NCBI GenBank assembly: GCA_048939465.1
Contig: JBHLPL010000001.1
Span: 1-32,000, forward strand
Source of the DNA: Promethearchaeota archaeon
Lineage (GTDB): Archaea > Asgardarchaeota > Odinarchaeia > Odinarchaeales > JBHLKK01
Length of the DNA stretch: 32,000 nucleotides
Direction: 5' to 3'
In this document: piece by piece, positions 467 to 27,277 of the stretch
How the letters are laid out: every line of letters starts with the position of its first letter
Position numbering within the stretch: the stretch's first letter is position 1
Notes under the pieces: generated by a model
Databases searched by the model: none
Told to the model about the DNA's origin: nothing
Seen by the model: the letters and a program-made list of their open reading frames with translations, nothing else
Made by a program: the position numbers and the translations under genes

Positions 467-600
467 GTAAACTACTCCTAGCTATAGCAAGGAGCTTTCC
501 ATCAGAGGTTGAGTATGGTAAACTGCATCACTCAGAATCCCATCATTTGGACGAAAGAGCCTGTTTACTGAGACTCTAGCTCCAGTAAAGCGGGAAAAGA
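467..600 (-). mobile_element. Element D: IS200/IS605-type right end with upstream structured sequence (5' boundary uncertain)
   Basis: The minus strand ends GAAAGCTCCTTGC-TATA-GCTAGGAGTAGTTTAC, matching the terminal hairpin and end of the copies at 15050, 22502 and 27277. No left end was recognised. Confidence 0.6.
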
Positions 601-13479: not shown

Positions 13480-14412
13480 CTAAATAGTTGTGATTTCTAT
13501 TCCATCTTCTGTCACAATTACGGTATGCTCTGATTGGGCCACTTTGCTACCTCTAATATCTGACAAAACGTAATACTTCCGCAGCAGTCCTTTGGAATTT
13601 AACTCCTTAAATCCCATTTTCAGACTTAAGGGTGGGATTCTTCTTGTGAGCCAACGCTCTGCGAATGGAAGTGTCTTGTATTCTTTTATTGCTATGCTGA
13701 TTACTTTCCTTGAACCTTCAAATCTTACTGGACTCCTTATCGGAAGAAGGCTGTAAATGTAGCAATAGTTGGTCTCATGCGCCGCACCTTTTCCTGTTGT
13801 GGCAAAGGTCTCAATGCCGTATACTTCTCCCTCCTCTATCTTGTACCCATACGGAACACTAATATTCGGCACAACTTTTCCTCCGTGAACTATGTATTGA
13901 TCAACTGTGTGTCCTGACAGATCTTTTATGGGTCTGTAACCGTATTCTTTTATTGTTTTCTCGATGATTTTTCCAATTTCGTTGGTTTTTACTCCCGGTT
14001 TGAATGCATCCAAGGCTCTTTCGAGGGATTTCTCTGTAGATTCAACGAGCGAGTCATATTCTGGATCAAAAGATACGGTGAATGCACCATCTGCAATATA
14101 TCCATCAATATGGACGCCAAAGTCCACCTTGACGACGTCCTTTTCTCCTATCCTCAATTCATCGTTATGCGGAGATGTGTAGTGGGCGGCCACATGGTTT
14201 ATCGAAACATTTGTCGGAAAAGCCGGTTTGCCTCCTTTTTCCGTGATTAGCGTTTCTATTTTCTCACACAATTCAATTACTGGCATTCCCGCCTTCACGG
14301 AGGGCTTAATTTGTTTGCGCACTTCTTTGTGTATCTCACCCGATTTTCGATATTTGTCGTATTTCTCGCTTTCCTCTTCTTCCTTCTCCGTTTCATCTTT
14401 CTCTTGGCTCAT
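13480..14412 (-). CDS. map: Methionine aminopeptidase type II
   Basis: PAFPTNVSINHVAAHYT, DFGVHIDGYIADGAFT, LSGHTVDQY, GIETFATTG and AQSEHTVIV. Confidence 0.97.
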   Translation of the reverse strand: MSQEKDETEKEEEESEKYDKYRKSGEIHKEVRKQIKPSVKAGMPVIELCEKIETLITEKGGKPAFPTNVSINHVAAHYTSPHNDELRIGEKDVVKVDFGVHIDGYIADGAFTVSFDPEYDSLVESTEKSLERALDAFKPGVKTNEIGKIIEKTIKEYGYRPIKDLSGHTVDQYIVHGGKVVPNISVPYGYKIEEGEVYGIETFATTGKGAAHETNYCYIYSLLPIRSPVRFEGSRKVISIAIKEYKTLPFAERWLTRRIPPLSLKMGFKELNSKGLLRKYYVLSDIRGSKVAQSEHTVIVTEDGIEITTI

Positions 14413-14561
14413 GCCTTTGACCAGCCTCTGTTCCTATTCCCCCAAACCGGTTTGAATACGACCTATAAGTCAATTTAGACTTATATAAGAGAATTGCTCA
14501 GAGAAACAAAAATAAAGTTTTATATTCTTAAATATTGTTCTAAATTAAATGTAAATGAGGG

Positions 14562-14942: not shown

Positions 14943-15049
14943 TTTTAGGGAGGTATTTGCTGGCTCAGATCCCCCATCGCATGATCATCCATTTTACTGT
15001 CAATGCTATGAAATCTTCACCGCCGATAGATCTATTCATGCTTGCATAA

Positions 15050-15313
15050 GTGAAATGCCCCCCGCTTTCGCAAGGTGCTTCCCCCCTCTGCCTTATGCAG
15101 CTGAGAGCACTTCGGCTTCCTAGAGGGGAAGTTTCTGTTTTCCAGAGTTGACGGGTACACAGGAAAGCTTTCTCCTTCGGGCTGGTTCACTCCGTGCTGT
15201 GCCACAGACACAAGGCAGCCCTGTCAAGCAGGATATACCCACAAGACCTGCACCCCTAGACCGAGTCTCACACCTACGCCGTTGTCAACCTTCCTCTTAC
15301 GAGTATCTTACCC
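15050..15313 (-). ncRNA. Putative ~265-nt structured RNA (omega/reRNA-like scaffold) inside element A
   Basis: Internal TTTAAAT TATA box at 15336-15342. Helices covary with the copy in element B. The transcription start is inferred. Confidence 0.55.
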
Positions 15314-15396
15314 AAACCTTAATTACCAGAAAGTCATTTAAACGTACCGCGATTCATCTCCACCCTCTCGGATGGACTCTTCCTGTGGAGAAAAGG
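15050..15396 (-). mobile_element. Element A: non-autonomous IS200/IS605-derived (PATE/MITE-like) element, 347 bp, no coding capacity
   Basis: Minus strand: TTTAT target (15397-15401), left-end hairpin CCATCC-GAGA-GGGTGG-AGATGAATCGC, and right-end GAAGCACCTTGC-GAAA-GCGGGGGGCATTTCAC. Collinear with 22502-22852. Confidence 0.82.
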
Positions 15397-15446
15397 ATAA
15401 ATCTTGCTTCAATAAAGCAGTTTCATGGGCTATGAGACGGAGTCGA

Positions 15447-22501: not shown

Positions 22502-22769
22502 GTGGACTACTCCTCGCTTTCGCAAGGAGTCTCCTCACTCTCTCTGCATTAAGCGTCTGAGGACACTTTGGCCTCGCAGAGTGAAGGTTTCTGTGCTCCG
22601 AATTCAGGACTGCACAGGAAAGCTTTCGCCTTCGGGCTCGTTTGCTCCATACTACTCCGCAGCCACTCAGGAGCCCTATCAAGCAGGATACACCCACAAA
22701 GCATGCATCCCCCAGACCGGGTTTTGCACTCGTAACGTAGGGCAACCTTCCTCTTGCGAGCATCTTACC
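22502..22769 (-). ncRNA. Putative ~268-nt structured RNA (omega/reRNA-like scaffold) inside element B
   Basis: Internal TTTTAAATA TATA box at 22791-22799, GNRA-capped hairpins, and helices covarying with element A. Confidence 0.55.
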
Positions 22770-22852
22770 AAGACTTAGTTATCGAAAAGCTATTTAAAAG
22801 CAATGCAGTTCATATCCATCCTCTCAGATGGGGTCCTCTTGCCGAAAAAAAA
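22502..22852 (-). mobile_element. Element B: non-autonomous IS200/IS605-derived (PATE/MITE-like) element, 351 bp
   Basis: Minus strand: TTTAT target (22853-22857), left-end GGCAAGAGGACC-CCATCT-GAGA-GGATGG-ATATGAACTGC, and right-end GAGACTCCTTGC-GAAA-GCGAGGAGTAGTCCAC. Collinear with element A. Confidence 0.85.
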
Positions 22853-22925
22853 GATAAAGGGTTGAGCATTTGAAGTCTTCCGATGAAGAATGGTCCGATA
22901 TAATTAAGATAGATAAATCATATTA

Positions 22926-25485: not shown

Positions 25486-27042
25486 CTAATAACTTAGCTC
25501 TGTGTGTCTTTGGAGATAGGGATGGGGATCCAAGCTAGACCAAGACAAGTCAATATCGCTACGCTGAGACATCAACTCCTCAAGTAATCTCCCTGCTTTC
25601 TTTGTTTTCCACCAATAGTCACCGTAGTCATGCTCTAGCAATTGTTCGAGTTCAGCAACTCTTACTGACGCAATAACATAGCTTGGACTATAAAGGTTAT
25701 AACTCGGCATAACATGATGTAATAGCCAATAGTCACCTGGCAGTCTGTGGAAGAACCTCGCAGTTAGTTCTTCATAACGCTCGGACGCTCCTTCTATGCT
25801 AAGATTATTCCGCCAATATTCAAGTTTCAAAATGCTGTTTGCTGCATAGAAGACCAGAAACCAAAGATTCATGAAATGCCTTCTATTAATAATATCATTG
25901 GCTACTTCTTCATTGAATTTGAATACTTCGTTTAGAACGAGAGGATTTTCGACGATGTGTTCAAAGAGAATAGAAAATGTCTCATCAACTCCGATTGGCG
26001 TGAAATACCGGTTCCATATTGGTTTATCCGAACGTGCAGATACACCATGTATTGCATGTCCCATTTCGTGAAAAACGCTGCTTGTATCTTCAAAAGGATC
26101 ACTTTGTCTAAAAAGAATACGAACATCATTTGGAATCTGAACGTAGAAGGTTACTGGACTTGGCGTTTTTCCTGGACGATCTGCATCGTCTACATTGACC
26201 CGAGATAGATCAAGACCCATTTCTTCAAAAACATCTTTAACAATTTCTATGGGATTTTTCAATTTGGCAAAACGTCTTTTGAGGGGATGATAGACCCTAC
26301 TCCTAAAAACATACATATCATCATAATAATCAAAGGGCTTTCCAAAGAGCTCCTCAGAGTATCTCTCAGCACCTTTCATGAATGGTGATTTAGCTCGATC
26401 ACCTAACATTTCAAGTAGTCTGTGAAGATCCTCGTATCGAACATCTTCCCACTCCAGATATTTCTCAAGCGCGGTGGTATTGTACTTTGCATACGTTTGT
26501 CTGGAGATTTCAAAGAATTCCTCTATTAATGATTTGATTAAGGAAGCTTTCTGGATAAATTCATCAAAAACCGCCTTTCTTTTACTGGGCTCGGCTTCAG
26601 AATTGAATTGACGCCAATTTCCCCAGTTGACATTTTCTCCTCTGAATCTTTCCTTGCTGGAGATAACTCTATTGCGTTCTTCGTGTAATTTGTGTGTAAC
26701 AGGAGTTTGCTCAGAGACAACAATGGACTCAACAAGTCCCTGCTTCAGCCTAAGATTTTCCGGTTGATGCCGTTGGAGGAACTCCCTTGATATTCGAATC
26801 ATATCCTTGGCTGCTTTTTCCATCCTGTCCTTATTTACGTCCAAACCAGCGTATTGATTGTACAACTCTTCGGCCTCTATGCTGTACAGCATTTCCCATT
26901 CTTTGTAGAATTTTGAAGGTTCCACGTTGATCCCCTCAATTGCCCTTCTGCTTTTTGAGAGATAATCCTTACGATTATTTATGTTTTTCTTCCACAAGGA
27001 GACTCCATCCGCGGGGGTGGACGTGAATCGAGTTGTGTTCAA
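25486..27042 (-). CDS. Zinc metallopeptidase, M3/oligopeptidase-like (gluzincin)
   Basis: VFHEMGHAIH HExxH motif with a downstream DETFSILFE third-ligand Glu. TTG start after GAGGGG. Confidence 0.85.
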   Translation of the reverse strand: MNTTRFTSTPADGVSLWKKNINNRKDYLSKSRRAIEGINVEPSKFYKEWEMLYSIEAEELYNQYAGLDVNKDRMEKAAKDMIRISREFLQRHQPENLRLKQGLVESIVVSEQTPVTHKLHEERNRVISSKERFRGENVNWGNWRQFNSEAEPSKRKAVFDEFIQKASLIKSLIEEFFEISRQTYAKYNTTALEKYLEWEDVRYEDLHRLLEMLGDRAKSPFMKGAERYSEELFGKPFDYYDDMYVFRSRVYHPLKRRFAKLKNPIEIVKDVFEEMGLDLSRVNVDDADRPGKTPSPVTFYVQIPNDVRILFRQSDPFEDTSSVFHEMGHAIHGVSARSDKPIWNRYFTPIGVDETFSILFEHIVENPLVLNEVFKFNEEVANDIINRRHFMNLWFLVFYAANSILKLEYWRNNLSIEGASERYEELTARFFHRLPGDYWLLHHVMPSYNLYSPSYVIASVRVAELEQLLEHDYGDYWWKTKKAGRLLEELMSQRSDIDLSWSSLDPHPYLQRHTELSY

Positions 27043-27062
27043 AACCCCTCTTGAGTGTTTAT

Positions 27063-27277
27063 GGCAAGGGTCTGTGACCCTGAAAGGAGAGTTGACATAG
27101 GTAACAGGCTCTTAGGCTATATGCTTAAAGAAGGGCTATCCCGCAGTCTGTGGCTGCTTGTGACGGGAATTTAACCGGCCCCAAACCTCCCCCAATGTTC
27201 GTTACTCTGAAAAGAGACTTGTTAGCGTTTCAAAGTCCGAGGGAGAAAACCCCTTGCGAAAGCTGGAGGTAGTTCAC
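27063..27277 (+). mobile_element. Element C: shorter, divergent relative of A/B (215 bp)
   Basis: Directly preceded by TTTAT (27058-27062) and ends GAAAACCCCTTGC-GAAA-GCTGGAGGTAGTTCAC. Internal patches resemble A (GGCTATATGCTT..AGGGCT..GTCTGTGGC) and D (AACAGGCTCTT). Confidence 0.65.

What the first reader, a model, noticed from the sequence alone, without database searches (positions are those of the whole stretch)
15050..15342. Self-promoted ~265-nt structured RNA with compensatory base changes: candidate trans-acting omega-RNA guide cassette
A and B are collinear (roughly 70% identical by eye, not computed), have no conserved ORF, and both keep a TATA box just inside the left end about 30 nt before a shared GGTAAGAT start. 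Differences preserve pairing. Helix UUCCCCUCU/AGAGGGGGG (A, 15122-30/15081-89) versus CUUCACUCU/AGAGUGAGG (B, 22578-86/22533-41) has two C-G to A-U/U-A swaps. CUGU-GGC-ACAG becomes CUGC-GGA-GUAG, CUC-GUAA-GAG becomes CUC-GCAA-GAG (both GNRA loops), UCCUG-CUUGA-CAGGG becomes UCCUG-CUUGA-UAGGG, and the right-end stem base changes G-C to A-U. In TnpB systems the right end forms the RNA scaffold and the flanking host sequence is the guide. These cassettes would give guides starting UUAUGCAAGCAUGAAU (A), AAGGCGUUCAGGCCUA (B) and UCAGAGAAGAAGGAUU (C), each matching its own TTTAT-adjacent empty site. This suggests a dispersed guide-RNA array for a TnpB-like protein encoded elsewhere, used for element retention or domesticated for regulation.
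Basis: partly seen in the sequence, partly recalled or inferred. Interest (0 to 1): 0.85.

Follow-up and report, generated by a model that had tools for sequence, protein, structure and literature searches.

The report
Gene-less IS200/IS605 transposon keeping guide-RNA scaffold
The "structured RNA" is the inside of a 347-base, gene-less miniature of an IS200/IS605 jumping gene that kept the promoter and the guide-RNA part of its lost TnpB nuclease gene; this kind of element is already described, here well documented in an archaeon that earlier notes of this scan call Asgard.

Summary
The repeat is real. Copy A runs further than reported, over window 15050-15396 on the minus strand.

**What it is.** It is a non-autonomous IS200/IS605 mini-element (PATE type). 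It sits exactly 3' of TTTAT with no target duplication. It has a left-end hairpin, a TATA box, a ~264-nt scaffold and a right-end hairpin ending TTCAC.

**Copies.** The 1.96-Mb genome holds 13 copies of this family (69-78% identical). It also holds a sister family (copy C) and a third family derived from a resident tnpB element.

**Mobility.** A, B and C are all missing at the matching sites of two species of the same genus.

**Origin.** In those species and in another family of the phylum, the sister scaffold lies inside the last ~190 nt of a tnpB gene. That is where omega-RNAs are encoded.

**Structure.** The core of the scaffold covaries strongly (80% paired against 32-41% in slid controls). 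Two of its hairpins are not the conserved fold.

**Limits.** Guides match only their own flanks. No matching tnpB was found in this 91%-complete assembly.

**Verdict.** This is a known kind (Meers 2023; Dyall-Smith 2011), and this scan has already noted it on other DNA of this genome.

The parts
15397..15401 (-). Target/TAM pentanucleotide TTTAT immediately 5' of the left end of copy A
   Evidence: Sequence. The empty sites in G001 and G002 end with the same TTTAT. TTTAT or TTCAT precedes most copies.
15050..15396 (-). Copy A: whole 347-nt non-autonomous IS200/IS605 mini-element (family F1)
   Evidence: The boundaries come from the 14-copy alignment and from the precise empty sites in congeners. 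nhmmer scores the whole element at E=6.5e-102.
15359..15376 (-). Left-end subterminal hairpin TCCATCC-GAGA-GGGTGGA
   Evidence: It is conserved in about 75 left-end-like sites of the genome. The same hairpin begins the tnpB element on C2 and the tnpA-tnpB element on C105.
15336..15342 (-). TATA box TTTAAAT; in the full-length elements this is the tnpB promoter
   Evidence: It is kept in 21 of 28 copies and is one of the best conserved blocks of the 5' third. The same motif sits upstream of tnpB in C2 and in the G001 parent.
15050..15313 (-). ~264-nt omega-RNA-like scaffold, from the predicted start GGGUAAGAU to the right-end boundary ...UUUCAC
   Evidence: The start lies 26 nt downstream of the TATA centre; this is inferred, not measured. 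The stretch is homologous to F3 scaffolds, which lie inside tnpB 3' ends.
15177..15252 (-). Conserved core domain: hairpin with UAUAU loop, helix GGGCUG/CAGCCC, inner hairpin
   Evidence: Alignment A2 has 30 copies. It is 80% paired against 32-41% in slid controls, with 78 double-change cells against 4-43, and 0 of 500 shuffles reach it. The signal is also seen within each family.
15185..15190 (-). Internal GUGAAC, complementary to the last six bases (15050-15055, UUUCAC): candidate pseudoknot next to the guide
   Evidence: Mean 5.2 of 6 bases paired against 3.6 or fewer in slid controls. C106 and C137b carry a compensatory U-A to C-G change. A permutation test is not significant. The ISDra2 omega-RNA has such a pseudoknot (PMC10097598).
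15058..15077 (-). Right-end subterminal hairpin CACCUUGC-GAAA-GCGGGGGG, followed by CAUUUCAC (the element end)
   Evidence: The family alignment breaks sharply after TTCAC. The same hairpin with AGTTCAC closes tnpB genes in 31 metagenome contigs.
15034..15049 (-). Inferred guide UUAUGCAAGCAUGAAU (host flank 3' of the right end)
   Evidence: This follows from the position alone. It corresponds to the sequence after TTTAT in the empty sites of G001 and G002. It has no other exact match in the genome.
22502..22853 (-). Copy B (family F1), with TTTAT at 22854-22858
   Evidence: G002 has an empty site here.
26983..27277 (+). Copy C (sister family F3, 295 nt), with TTTAT at 26978-26982
   Evidence: Translated, 27091-27266 matches the C-terminus of the G007-type TnpB. 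The element is absent at the matching site in G001 and G002.

Best explanation
Window 15050-15396 (minus strand) is a non-autonomous IS200/IS605-family mini-transposon of the PATE type.

**Origin.** An internal deletion of about 1 kb removed nearly all of a tnpB gene. It fused the left end, which carries the archaeal-type tnpB promoter, to the last part of the gene plus the right end. That last part encodes the TnpB guide RNA (omega-RNA).

**Shown here**
- The element ends, and insertion exactly 3' of TTTAT without target duplication.
- Presence or absence of copies between species of one genus.
- Homology of the scaffold family to tnpB 3' ends.
- Covariation in the scaffold core.

**Inferred**
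- The TATA box at 15336-15342 starts a transcript near 15313. That transcript runs through the scaffold and across the right-end boundary. Its 3' tail, UUAUGCAAGCAUGAAU, would be the guide.
- A TnpB made elsewhere binds the RNA and cuts the vacated site (TTTAT plus the guide match). Repair by recombination then restores the element, which is the homing and retention mechanism of Meers et al. 2023.
- The single Y1 transposase TnpA of the genome (contig C105) moves the copies in trans.

Many individual copies may already be decaying.
For: **Copies and ends.** The genome has 13 full copies at 69-78% identity, with sharp boundaries. It has about 75 left-end-like and about 40 right-end-like sites. 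The same left end, including the TATA box, precedes tnpB on C2. The same hairpins flank tnpA-tnpB on C105.

**Mobility.** Congeners carry precise empty sites for A, B and C, after TTTAT and with no duplication.

**Right end.** In 31 metagenome contigs the same right-end hairpin plus AGTTCAC lies directly behind tnpB, often with tnpA nearby.

**Parent elements.**
- A covariance model of the core finds the scaffold in G001, G002, G007 and G018.
- There it lies inside the 3' end of tnpB ORFs (PF07282, E=8e-18 to 3e-19). The best PDB matches include ISDra2 TnpB.
- F3 minis equal parent nt 1-129 plus nt 1130-1318. The retained part starts right after the RuvC-III motif.
- F1 is homologous to F3 over its full length.

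**Structure.** The core covaries. The TATA box is conserved.

**Parallel case.** A third family (F2, about 15 copies) shows the same promoter-plus-tnpB-3'-end fusion, derived from the resident C2 element.

**Literature.** PATEs are described as elements that 'often encode omega-RNAs' acted on in trans (Meers et al., doi 10.1101/2023.03.14.532601).
Against: - The start, the 3' end and even transcription itself are therefore inferred.
- No cognate (G001/G007-type) tnpB is found in this assembly, only fragments. The assembly is 91% complete. The resident TnpBs (C2, C105, C70, C55) belong to other types.
- F1 itself shows no protein-level trace of tnpB. Its link to tnpB rests on DNA homology to F3.
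- Within F1 the 3' domain shows no covariation above shuffles, and about 20% of its pair cells are broken. This fits neutral decay of inserted copies.
- The pseudoknot is compatible with the sequences but not proven.
- Rfam has no match.
Confidence: 0.8

Rival explanations
1. The copies are inert relics. They are real PATE mini-transposons, but in this genome they no longer make a used guide RNA. The conserved fold is inherited from once-active master elements, and each inserted copy now decays neutrally.
For: - No cognate tnpB is found in the assembly.
- Copies differ by 22-31%.
- Within F1 the 3' domain has about 20% broken pair cells and no covariation above shuffles.
- Several copies have a damaged TATA box, pseudoknot or right end (C10, C24, C134).
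- F1 insertion sites are not shared with G002.
Against: - The core domain still shows within-family covariation: F1 has 9 double changes against 3.4 expected (1 of 500 shuffles), and F3 has 24 against 10 (0 of 500).
- The TATA box is among the best conserved blocks.
- Three families independently keep promoter plus scaffold rather than the ends alone.
- The assembly is incomplete, so a tnpB may have been missed.
Confidence: 0.3
2. This is a domesticated guide-RNA array. The cassettes have been exapted by a nuclease-dead or host-serving TnpB relative, as with TldR, to regulate host genes next to or matching their guides.
For: - Each cassette has its own promoter.
- There are many dispersed copies.
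- The parent-type and C105 TnpBs carry GD instead of the usual RuvC-II glutamate.
Against: - All 21 guides tested match only their own flank. None has a second TTTAT-adjacent target.
- A, B and C are absent at the matching loci of sister species, so they are mobile insertions and not fixed regulators.
- The elements keep intact transposon ends.
- The RuvC-I and RuvC-III aspartates are present in the TnpBs.
Confidence: 0.04
3. The conserved pairing serves single-stranded DNA and not RNA. The helices would be DNA structures used by TnpA during peel-and-paste transposition.
For: - IS200/IS605 elements move as single-stranded DNA, and TnpA recognises subterminal DNA hairpins. This is established knowledge, cited.
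- Covariation cannot by itself tell DNA from RNA.
Against: - This role is known only for the two subterminal hairpins.
- The covarying core lies 100-200 nt inside the element.
- The core is rich in G-U pairs (for example 14:24 is GU in 25 of 30 copies). These are C-A mismatches on the other strand and are weak in DNA.
- The core coincides with the region that forms omega-RNA in characterised TnpB systems.
Confidence: 0.06

Closest known systems
PATE-like gene-less IS200/IS605 elements carrying omega-RNAs in Geobacillus stearothermophilus (Meers et al. 2023, doi 10.1101/2023.03.14.532601)
   Same: - Same left and right ends as tnpB-bearing elements of the genome, with no protein gene.
- Keeps the omega-RNA region.
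- Must rely on TnpA and TnpB made elsewhere.
- The guide is the right flank, so it targets the vacated TAM-adjacent site.
   Different: - The host is an archaeon, Asgard according to earlier notes of this scan.
- The RNA would be driven by a TATA-type promoter in the left end.
- The scaffold is long (~264 nt).
- The copies are old and divergent (69-78%).
- The cognate tnpB is not found in this assembly, although sister species have it.
PATEs of Haloquadratum walsbyi (Dyall-Smith et al. 2011, PMC3119063)
   Same: - No terminal inverted repeats.
- Near-terminal palindromes.
- No target duplication.
- Too short to encode a transposase.
- Derived from IS605/IS1341-type elements by core deletion.
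- Divergent copies, many per genome, with strain- or species-specific insertions.
   Different: - Many Haloquadratum PATEs are terminal-only forms of 52 bp. Here all three families keep the promoter plus the whole guide-RNA scaffold.
- The RNA aspect was unknown in 2011.
TnpB omega-RNA (reRNA) of ISDra2 (Nakagawa et al. 2023, PMC10097598)
   Same: - Encoded by the tnpB 3' end plus the right end.
- The scaffold ends at the transposon boundary, with the guide beyond it.
- Multi-stem fold.
- The bases just 5' of the guide can pair with an upstream loop (pseudoknot).
   Different: - No sequence similarity and no Rfam match.
- The scaffold is about twice as long (116 nt in ISDra2).
- The pseudoknot is only compatible here and is not proven.
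- Here the RNA stands alone without the gene.

Membership tests
PATE / non-autonomous IS200/IS605 element | No terminal inverted repeats, and a subterminal palindrome near each end on the same strand | tested here: met
   The left-end hairpin is at 15359-15376 and the right-end hairpin at 15058-15077, both on the minus strand.
PATE / non-autonomous IS200/IS605 element | Insertion 3' of a short specific target without target-site duplication | tested here: met
   The empty sites in G001 and G002 read ...TTTAT|flank. The occupied site reads ...TTTAT|element|flank. TTTAT or TTCAT precedes most copies.
PATE / non-autonomous IS200/IS605 element | Too short to encode a transposase, with no conserved ORF | tested here: met
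   The element is 347 nt. tblastn of TnpA and TnpB against F1 finds nothing.
PATE / non-autonomous IS200/IS605 element | Ends related to those of tnpA- or tnpB-bearing elements | tested here: met
   This holds for the C2 tnpB element, the C105 tnpA-tnpB element, the parents in G001, G007 and G018, and 31 metagenome contigs.
PATE / non-autonomous IS200/IS605 element | A Y1 transposase (TnpA) available in trans | tested here: met
   The genome has one PF01797 gene, at C105:1108-1557, E=6.5e-37. Its activity on these ends was not tested.
TnpB omega-RNA | The scaffold derives from, or overlaps, the 3' end of a tnpB gene and ends at the right-end boundary | tested here: met
   F3 is collinear with parent nt 1130-1318, inside the tnpB ORF. 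F1 is homologous to F3 over its whole length. For F1 the link is indirect.
TnpB omega-RNA | Conserved secondary structure supported by covariation | tested here: met
   The core is 80% paired against 32-41% in slid controls, and 0 of 500 shuffles reach it. The 3' domain within F1 is not significant.
TnpB omega-RNA | Pseudoknot between the bases next to the guide and an upstream loop | tested here: inconclusive
   GUGAAC pairs with GUUCAC at a mean of 5.2 of 6 bases, against 3.6 or fewer in slid controls. Two copies carry a compensatory change. In the permutation test 473 of 2000 shuffles reach the observed value.
TnpB omega-RNA | Cognate TnpB encoded in the same genome | tested here: not met
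   Only C-terminal and N-terminal fragments of the parent type occur in G000, which is 91% complete. Full-length copies occur in G001 and G002, the G002 copy disrupted. Other TnpB types are present.
TnpB omega-RNA | Transcribed, with the 3' end in the flank, bound by TnpB, and guiding TAM-dependent DNA cleavage | not testable with these tools
No tool models RNA-protein binding.
TldR-type domesticated TnpB guide RNA | A fixed locus whose guide targets a host promoter elsewhere | tested here: not met
   The guides match only their own flanks. The copies are insertion-polymorphic between species.
Any Rfam family | Match at the family's gathering score | tested here: not met
   The window gives 0 matches at gathering score. 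On the element itself there are only chance matches, at E=0.87 or worse.

The most novel reading that the evidence does not exclude
The two related families F1 and F3 (22 or more cassettes) are orphan guide-RNA units kept in a genome that has lost their own TnpB. Either a different resident TnpB (the C2 or C105 type, which share the right-end hairpin and the AGUUCAC tail) serves them across types, or their RNAs have taken on a role that needs no TnpB. Three independent families keep exactly promoter plus scaffold. That would then reflect selection for guide expression in gene-less transposons.
Probability: 0.15. Interest if true: 0.55.

Novelty: new member of a known kind. Interest (0 to 1): 0.3.

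Why it matters
This is a clean archaeal example of how TnpB guide RNAs can outlive and outnumber their nuclease genes. Three families in one 2-Mb genome each fuse the transposon's own promoter to the guide-RNA scaffold.

It offers natural, compact promoter-plus-scaffold units with a predicted TTTAT TAM. A matching intact TnpB in a sister species could be tested with them.

It adds nothing new in principle to the homing and retention model of Meers et al. 2023. Its main practical use is to prevent these repeats from being annotated as a novel RNA class.

Tried and rejected
- **Rfam** at gathering score and at E-value thresholds found nothing real.
- **RNAalifold** on the 15-copy full scaffold gave a poor consensus. 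The default model structure captured only 7 pairs. I therefore defined the helices from per-family folds and tested them.
- **A conserved 21-mer scanned against genome contigs** gave only one chance hit, in a Muribaculaceae contig.
- **tblastn of resident TnpA and TnpB against F1 and F3 minis** found no coding remnant. The link appeared only with the G007/G001-type TnpB.
- **The F1 scaffold profile** does not match the 3' ends of the resident C2 or C105 tnpB beyond the right-end hairpin.
- **A search for second targets of 21 guides** found none.
- **The orthologous F3 copy shared by G001 and G002** is 90.8% identical. Its aligned left flank looks similarly conserved by eye and its right flank does not align, so no selection signal could be read from it.
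- **Pseudoknot covariation** is not significant.
- **mafft-qinsi** was unavailable.
- The protein-structure and complex tools were not used, because they do not bear on an RNA and transposon question.

Full report
**Observation**

The window holds three related repeats: A at about 15050-15400, B at about 22502-22855 (both on the minus strand) and a more distant C at about 26980-27277 on the plus strand. A and B are 72-74% identical.

The window is part of contig C138 of a 1.96-Mb, 152-contig assembly that is 91% complete. In that genome blastn and nhmmer find 13 full-length copies of A's family (here F1) at 69-78% identity. They also find about 75 left-end-like and about 40 right-end-like sites.

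In a 14-copy alignment similarity stops sharply after ...AGTTCAC on one side. On the other side it starts just after a TTTAT-like pentamer. The finding's interval (15050-15342) is therefore only part of the unit. The element is 15050-15396, with TTTAT at 15397-15401.

**Transposon anatomy**

Read on the minus strand, A consists of these parts in order:
- TTTAT, the target.
- A left-end hairpin at 15359-15376.
- TTTAAAT at 15336-15342.
- GGGTAAGAT, starting 26 nt after the TATA centre, at 15313.
- A 264-nt interior.
- A right-end hairpin at 15058-15077.
- CATTTCAC, the element end, followed by host flank.

The same left end, including the TATA box, precedes a 384-aa tnpB on contig C2. Related hairpins and the ...AGTTCAC end bracket a tnpA-tnpB pair on C105. 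Pfam confirms HTH_OrfB, OrfB_IS605 and TNB domains in the TnpBs and Y1_Tnp in TnpA. Only one Y1 transposase gene was found.

**Mobility**

The two other species of the genus, G001 and G002, have contiguous sequence where A, B and C sit.

For A the junction is exact:
- G001 reads ...AAGATTTAT|TTGCACAAACATGAAT...
- This genome reads ...AAGATTTAT|[347 nt]|TTATGCAAGCATGAAT....

Insertion 3' of a pentanucleotide without duplication is the hallmark of IS200/IS605 transposition. Conversely, G001 and G002 share a copy that is absent from the matching intergenic region here.

**What the interior is**

F1 has no protein-level trace of tnpB. Its profile does not match the 3' ends of the resident tnpB genes beyond the right-end hairpin.

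Copy C belongs to a sister family, F3 (about 300-325 nt, at least 8 copies here and many in G001 and G002). F3 is homologous to F1 over its whole length, with nhmmer E-values of 1e-17 to 1e-31.

A covariance model of the shared core (R1) finds the scaffold only in the genus and in a second family of the phylum, G007 and G018. It gives one weak hit elsewhere among 151 genomes. In those genomes the scaffold plus right end lies inside the 3' end of a divergent tnpB ORF:
- The ORF carries PF07282 at E=8e-18 to 3e-19.
- Among its best PDB matches is ISDra2 TnpB, at E=4.5e-6.
- Its last ~60 residues match translated F3 copies of this genome, including window 27091-27266.
- G001 has a full-length copy with a 417-codon open frame. 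G002 has a disrupted one.
- F3 minis equal parent nt 1-129 plus nt 1130-1318. The retained 3' part begins right after the RuvC-III motif NRDLNGAINIGN.

That region is where TnpB omega-RNAs are encoded (PMC10097598).

A third family, F2 (about 15 copies of 225-245 nt), shows the same design. It was made from the resident C2 element, and its last 95 nt are 86-94% identical to the C2 end.

In 31 metagenome contigs the same right-end hairpin directly follows tnpB, often with tnpA.

**Structure**

On 30 copies of the core (alignment A2) I tested three helices: a hairpin with a UAUAU loop, GGGCUG/CAGCCC, and an inner hairpin.
- They are 80% paired, against 32-41% when partners are slid.
- They have 78 double-change cells against 4-43.
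- The covariation score is 0.372, against 0.144 or less.
- No shuffle out of 500 reaches these values.

The signal persists within each family. F1 has 9 double changes against 3.4 expected (1 of 500 shuffles). F3 has 24 against 10 (0 of 500). Related sequences can inflate such tests, as the tool warns.

Across 15 F1 copies, however, the 3' domain does not covary above shuffles, and one of the two 'swapped' pairs is unpaired in 12 of the 15 copies. The supported fold uses those bases differently.

An earlier first-reader note (e1-5417279) proposed that an internal GUGAAC pairs with the terminal GUUCAC. I tested this. The complementarity is clear: 5.2 of 6 bases pair, against 3.6 or fewer in slid controls. 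Two copies show a compensatory U-A to C-G change. Both motifs are nearly invariant, though, and the permutation test is not significant. The pseudoknot is a defining trait of TnpB and Cas12 guide RNAs. Here it is compatible, not proven.

**Promoter**

[TC]TTAAAT is kept in 21 of 28 copies and is among the best conserved blocks of the 5' third. In the full-length elements it lies upstream of tnpB, whose likely start codon is within about 35 nt. The 'self-promoted' reading is therefore reasonable, but it is inferred.

**Function and rivals**

The best reading is a PATE that keeps an omega-RNA cassette and depends on TnpA and TnpB in trans. Meers et al. state this explicitly for bacterial PATEs. 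Dyall-Smith et al. define the element class.

Some points argue against current activity:
- No cognate tnpB is found in this assembly.
- The copies are old.
- The F1 3' domain looks as if it is decaying.

I give a relic scenario 0.3. It overlaps with the main reading on what the element is.

Regulatory domestication is disfavoured. All 21 guides tested match only their own flank, and the copies are insertion-polymorphic.

A purely DNA-level role for the core helices is unlikely. They lie deep inside the element and are rich in G-U pairs.

**Novelty**

This is a known kind. Earlier follow-ups of this scan reached the same classification for other copies in this genome (e1-5417504, e1-5417036, e1-5417086, e1-5417212). 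I reached it independently, and I added the parent tnpB elements in sister species and the tests of the fold. The statement that the host is an Asgard archaeon comes from those notes and was not verified here. The Roadblock/LC7 gene next to A and the TATA-type promoter are consistent with an archaeon.

Noticed in passing
G000 contigs, e.g. C39:12662-12903, C137:2621-2863, C141:1208-1453, C89:1418-1657: A third mini-element family (F2) has about 15 copies of 225-245 nt. It consists of left end, TATA box, about 65 nt of unknown origin, and the last 95 nt of the resident C2 tnpB element (86-94% identical).
   Followed up: partly
window 467-506: A solitary right-end-like hairpin on the minus strand (CTCCTTGC-TATA-GCTAGGAG, then TAGTTTAC). 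No recognisable left end lies nearby. It is probably the remnant of another mini-element.
   Followed up: no
G000 C141:6185-6271 (minus strand): A strong left end with TATA box (E=5e-20) is not followed by a scaffold or a right end. About 100 nt downstream starts an ORF rich in cysteines (MKSTKEVIFQPEGKRVE...CGGKGKCGKCKV), not scanned against any family library. This may be a case of a transposon promoter left in front of a host gene.
   Followed up: no
L169:1504-2757 (G001 parent TnpB), G000 C105:1539-2840, G007 L146: The parent-type TnpB and the C105 TnpB have GD (VFGDLK, IVGDLE) where the C2 and C70 TnpBs and ISDra2 have the RuvC-II glutamate. The RuvC-I and RuvC-III aspartates are present. 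Whether these proteins are active nucleases is open.
   Followed up: partly
G001:C3:7316-7641 and G002:C1:12785-13110 (loci L116, L113): An F3 copy sits at the same site in both sister species, with identical flank TTTTGTACCTCTA and 90.8% identity. It is absent from the matching intergenic region here (window ~14405-14512). In G002 a C2-type right end lies head-to-head next to it.
   Followed up: partly
G000 C48:18818-19221: This F1 copy carries a 47-nt insertion inside one scaffold hairpin. The insert itself looks like a small GNRA-type hairpin (...CTTCGCCCTTTCGGAAGAAG...).
   Followed up: no
G000 C151:201-644 and C69:36774-37029: These are partial deletion derivatives of the parent-type element. 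C151 still encodes the first ~43 residues of the G007/G001-type TnpB, and C69 the last ~70. They are intermediate stages between a full element and a mini.
   Followed up: partly
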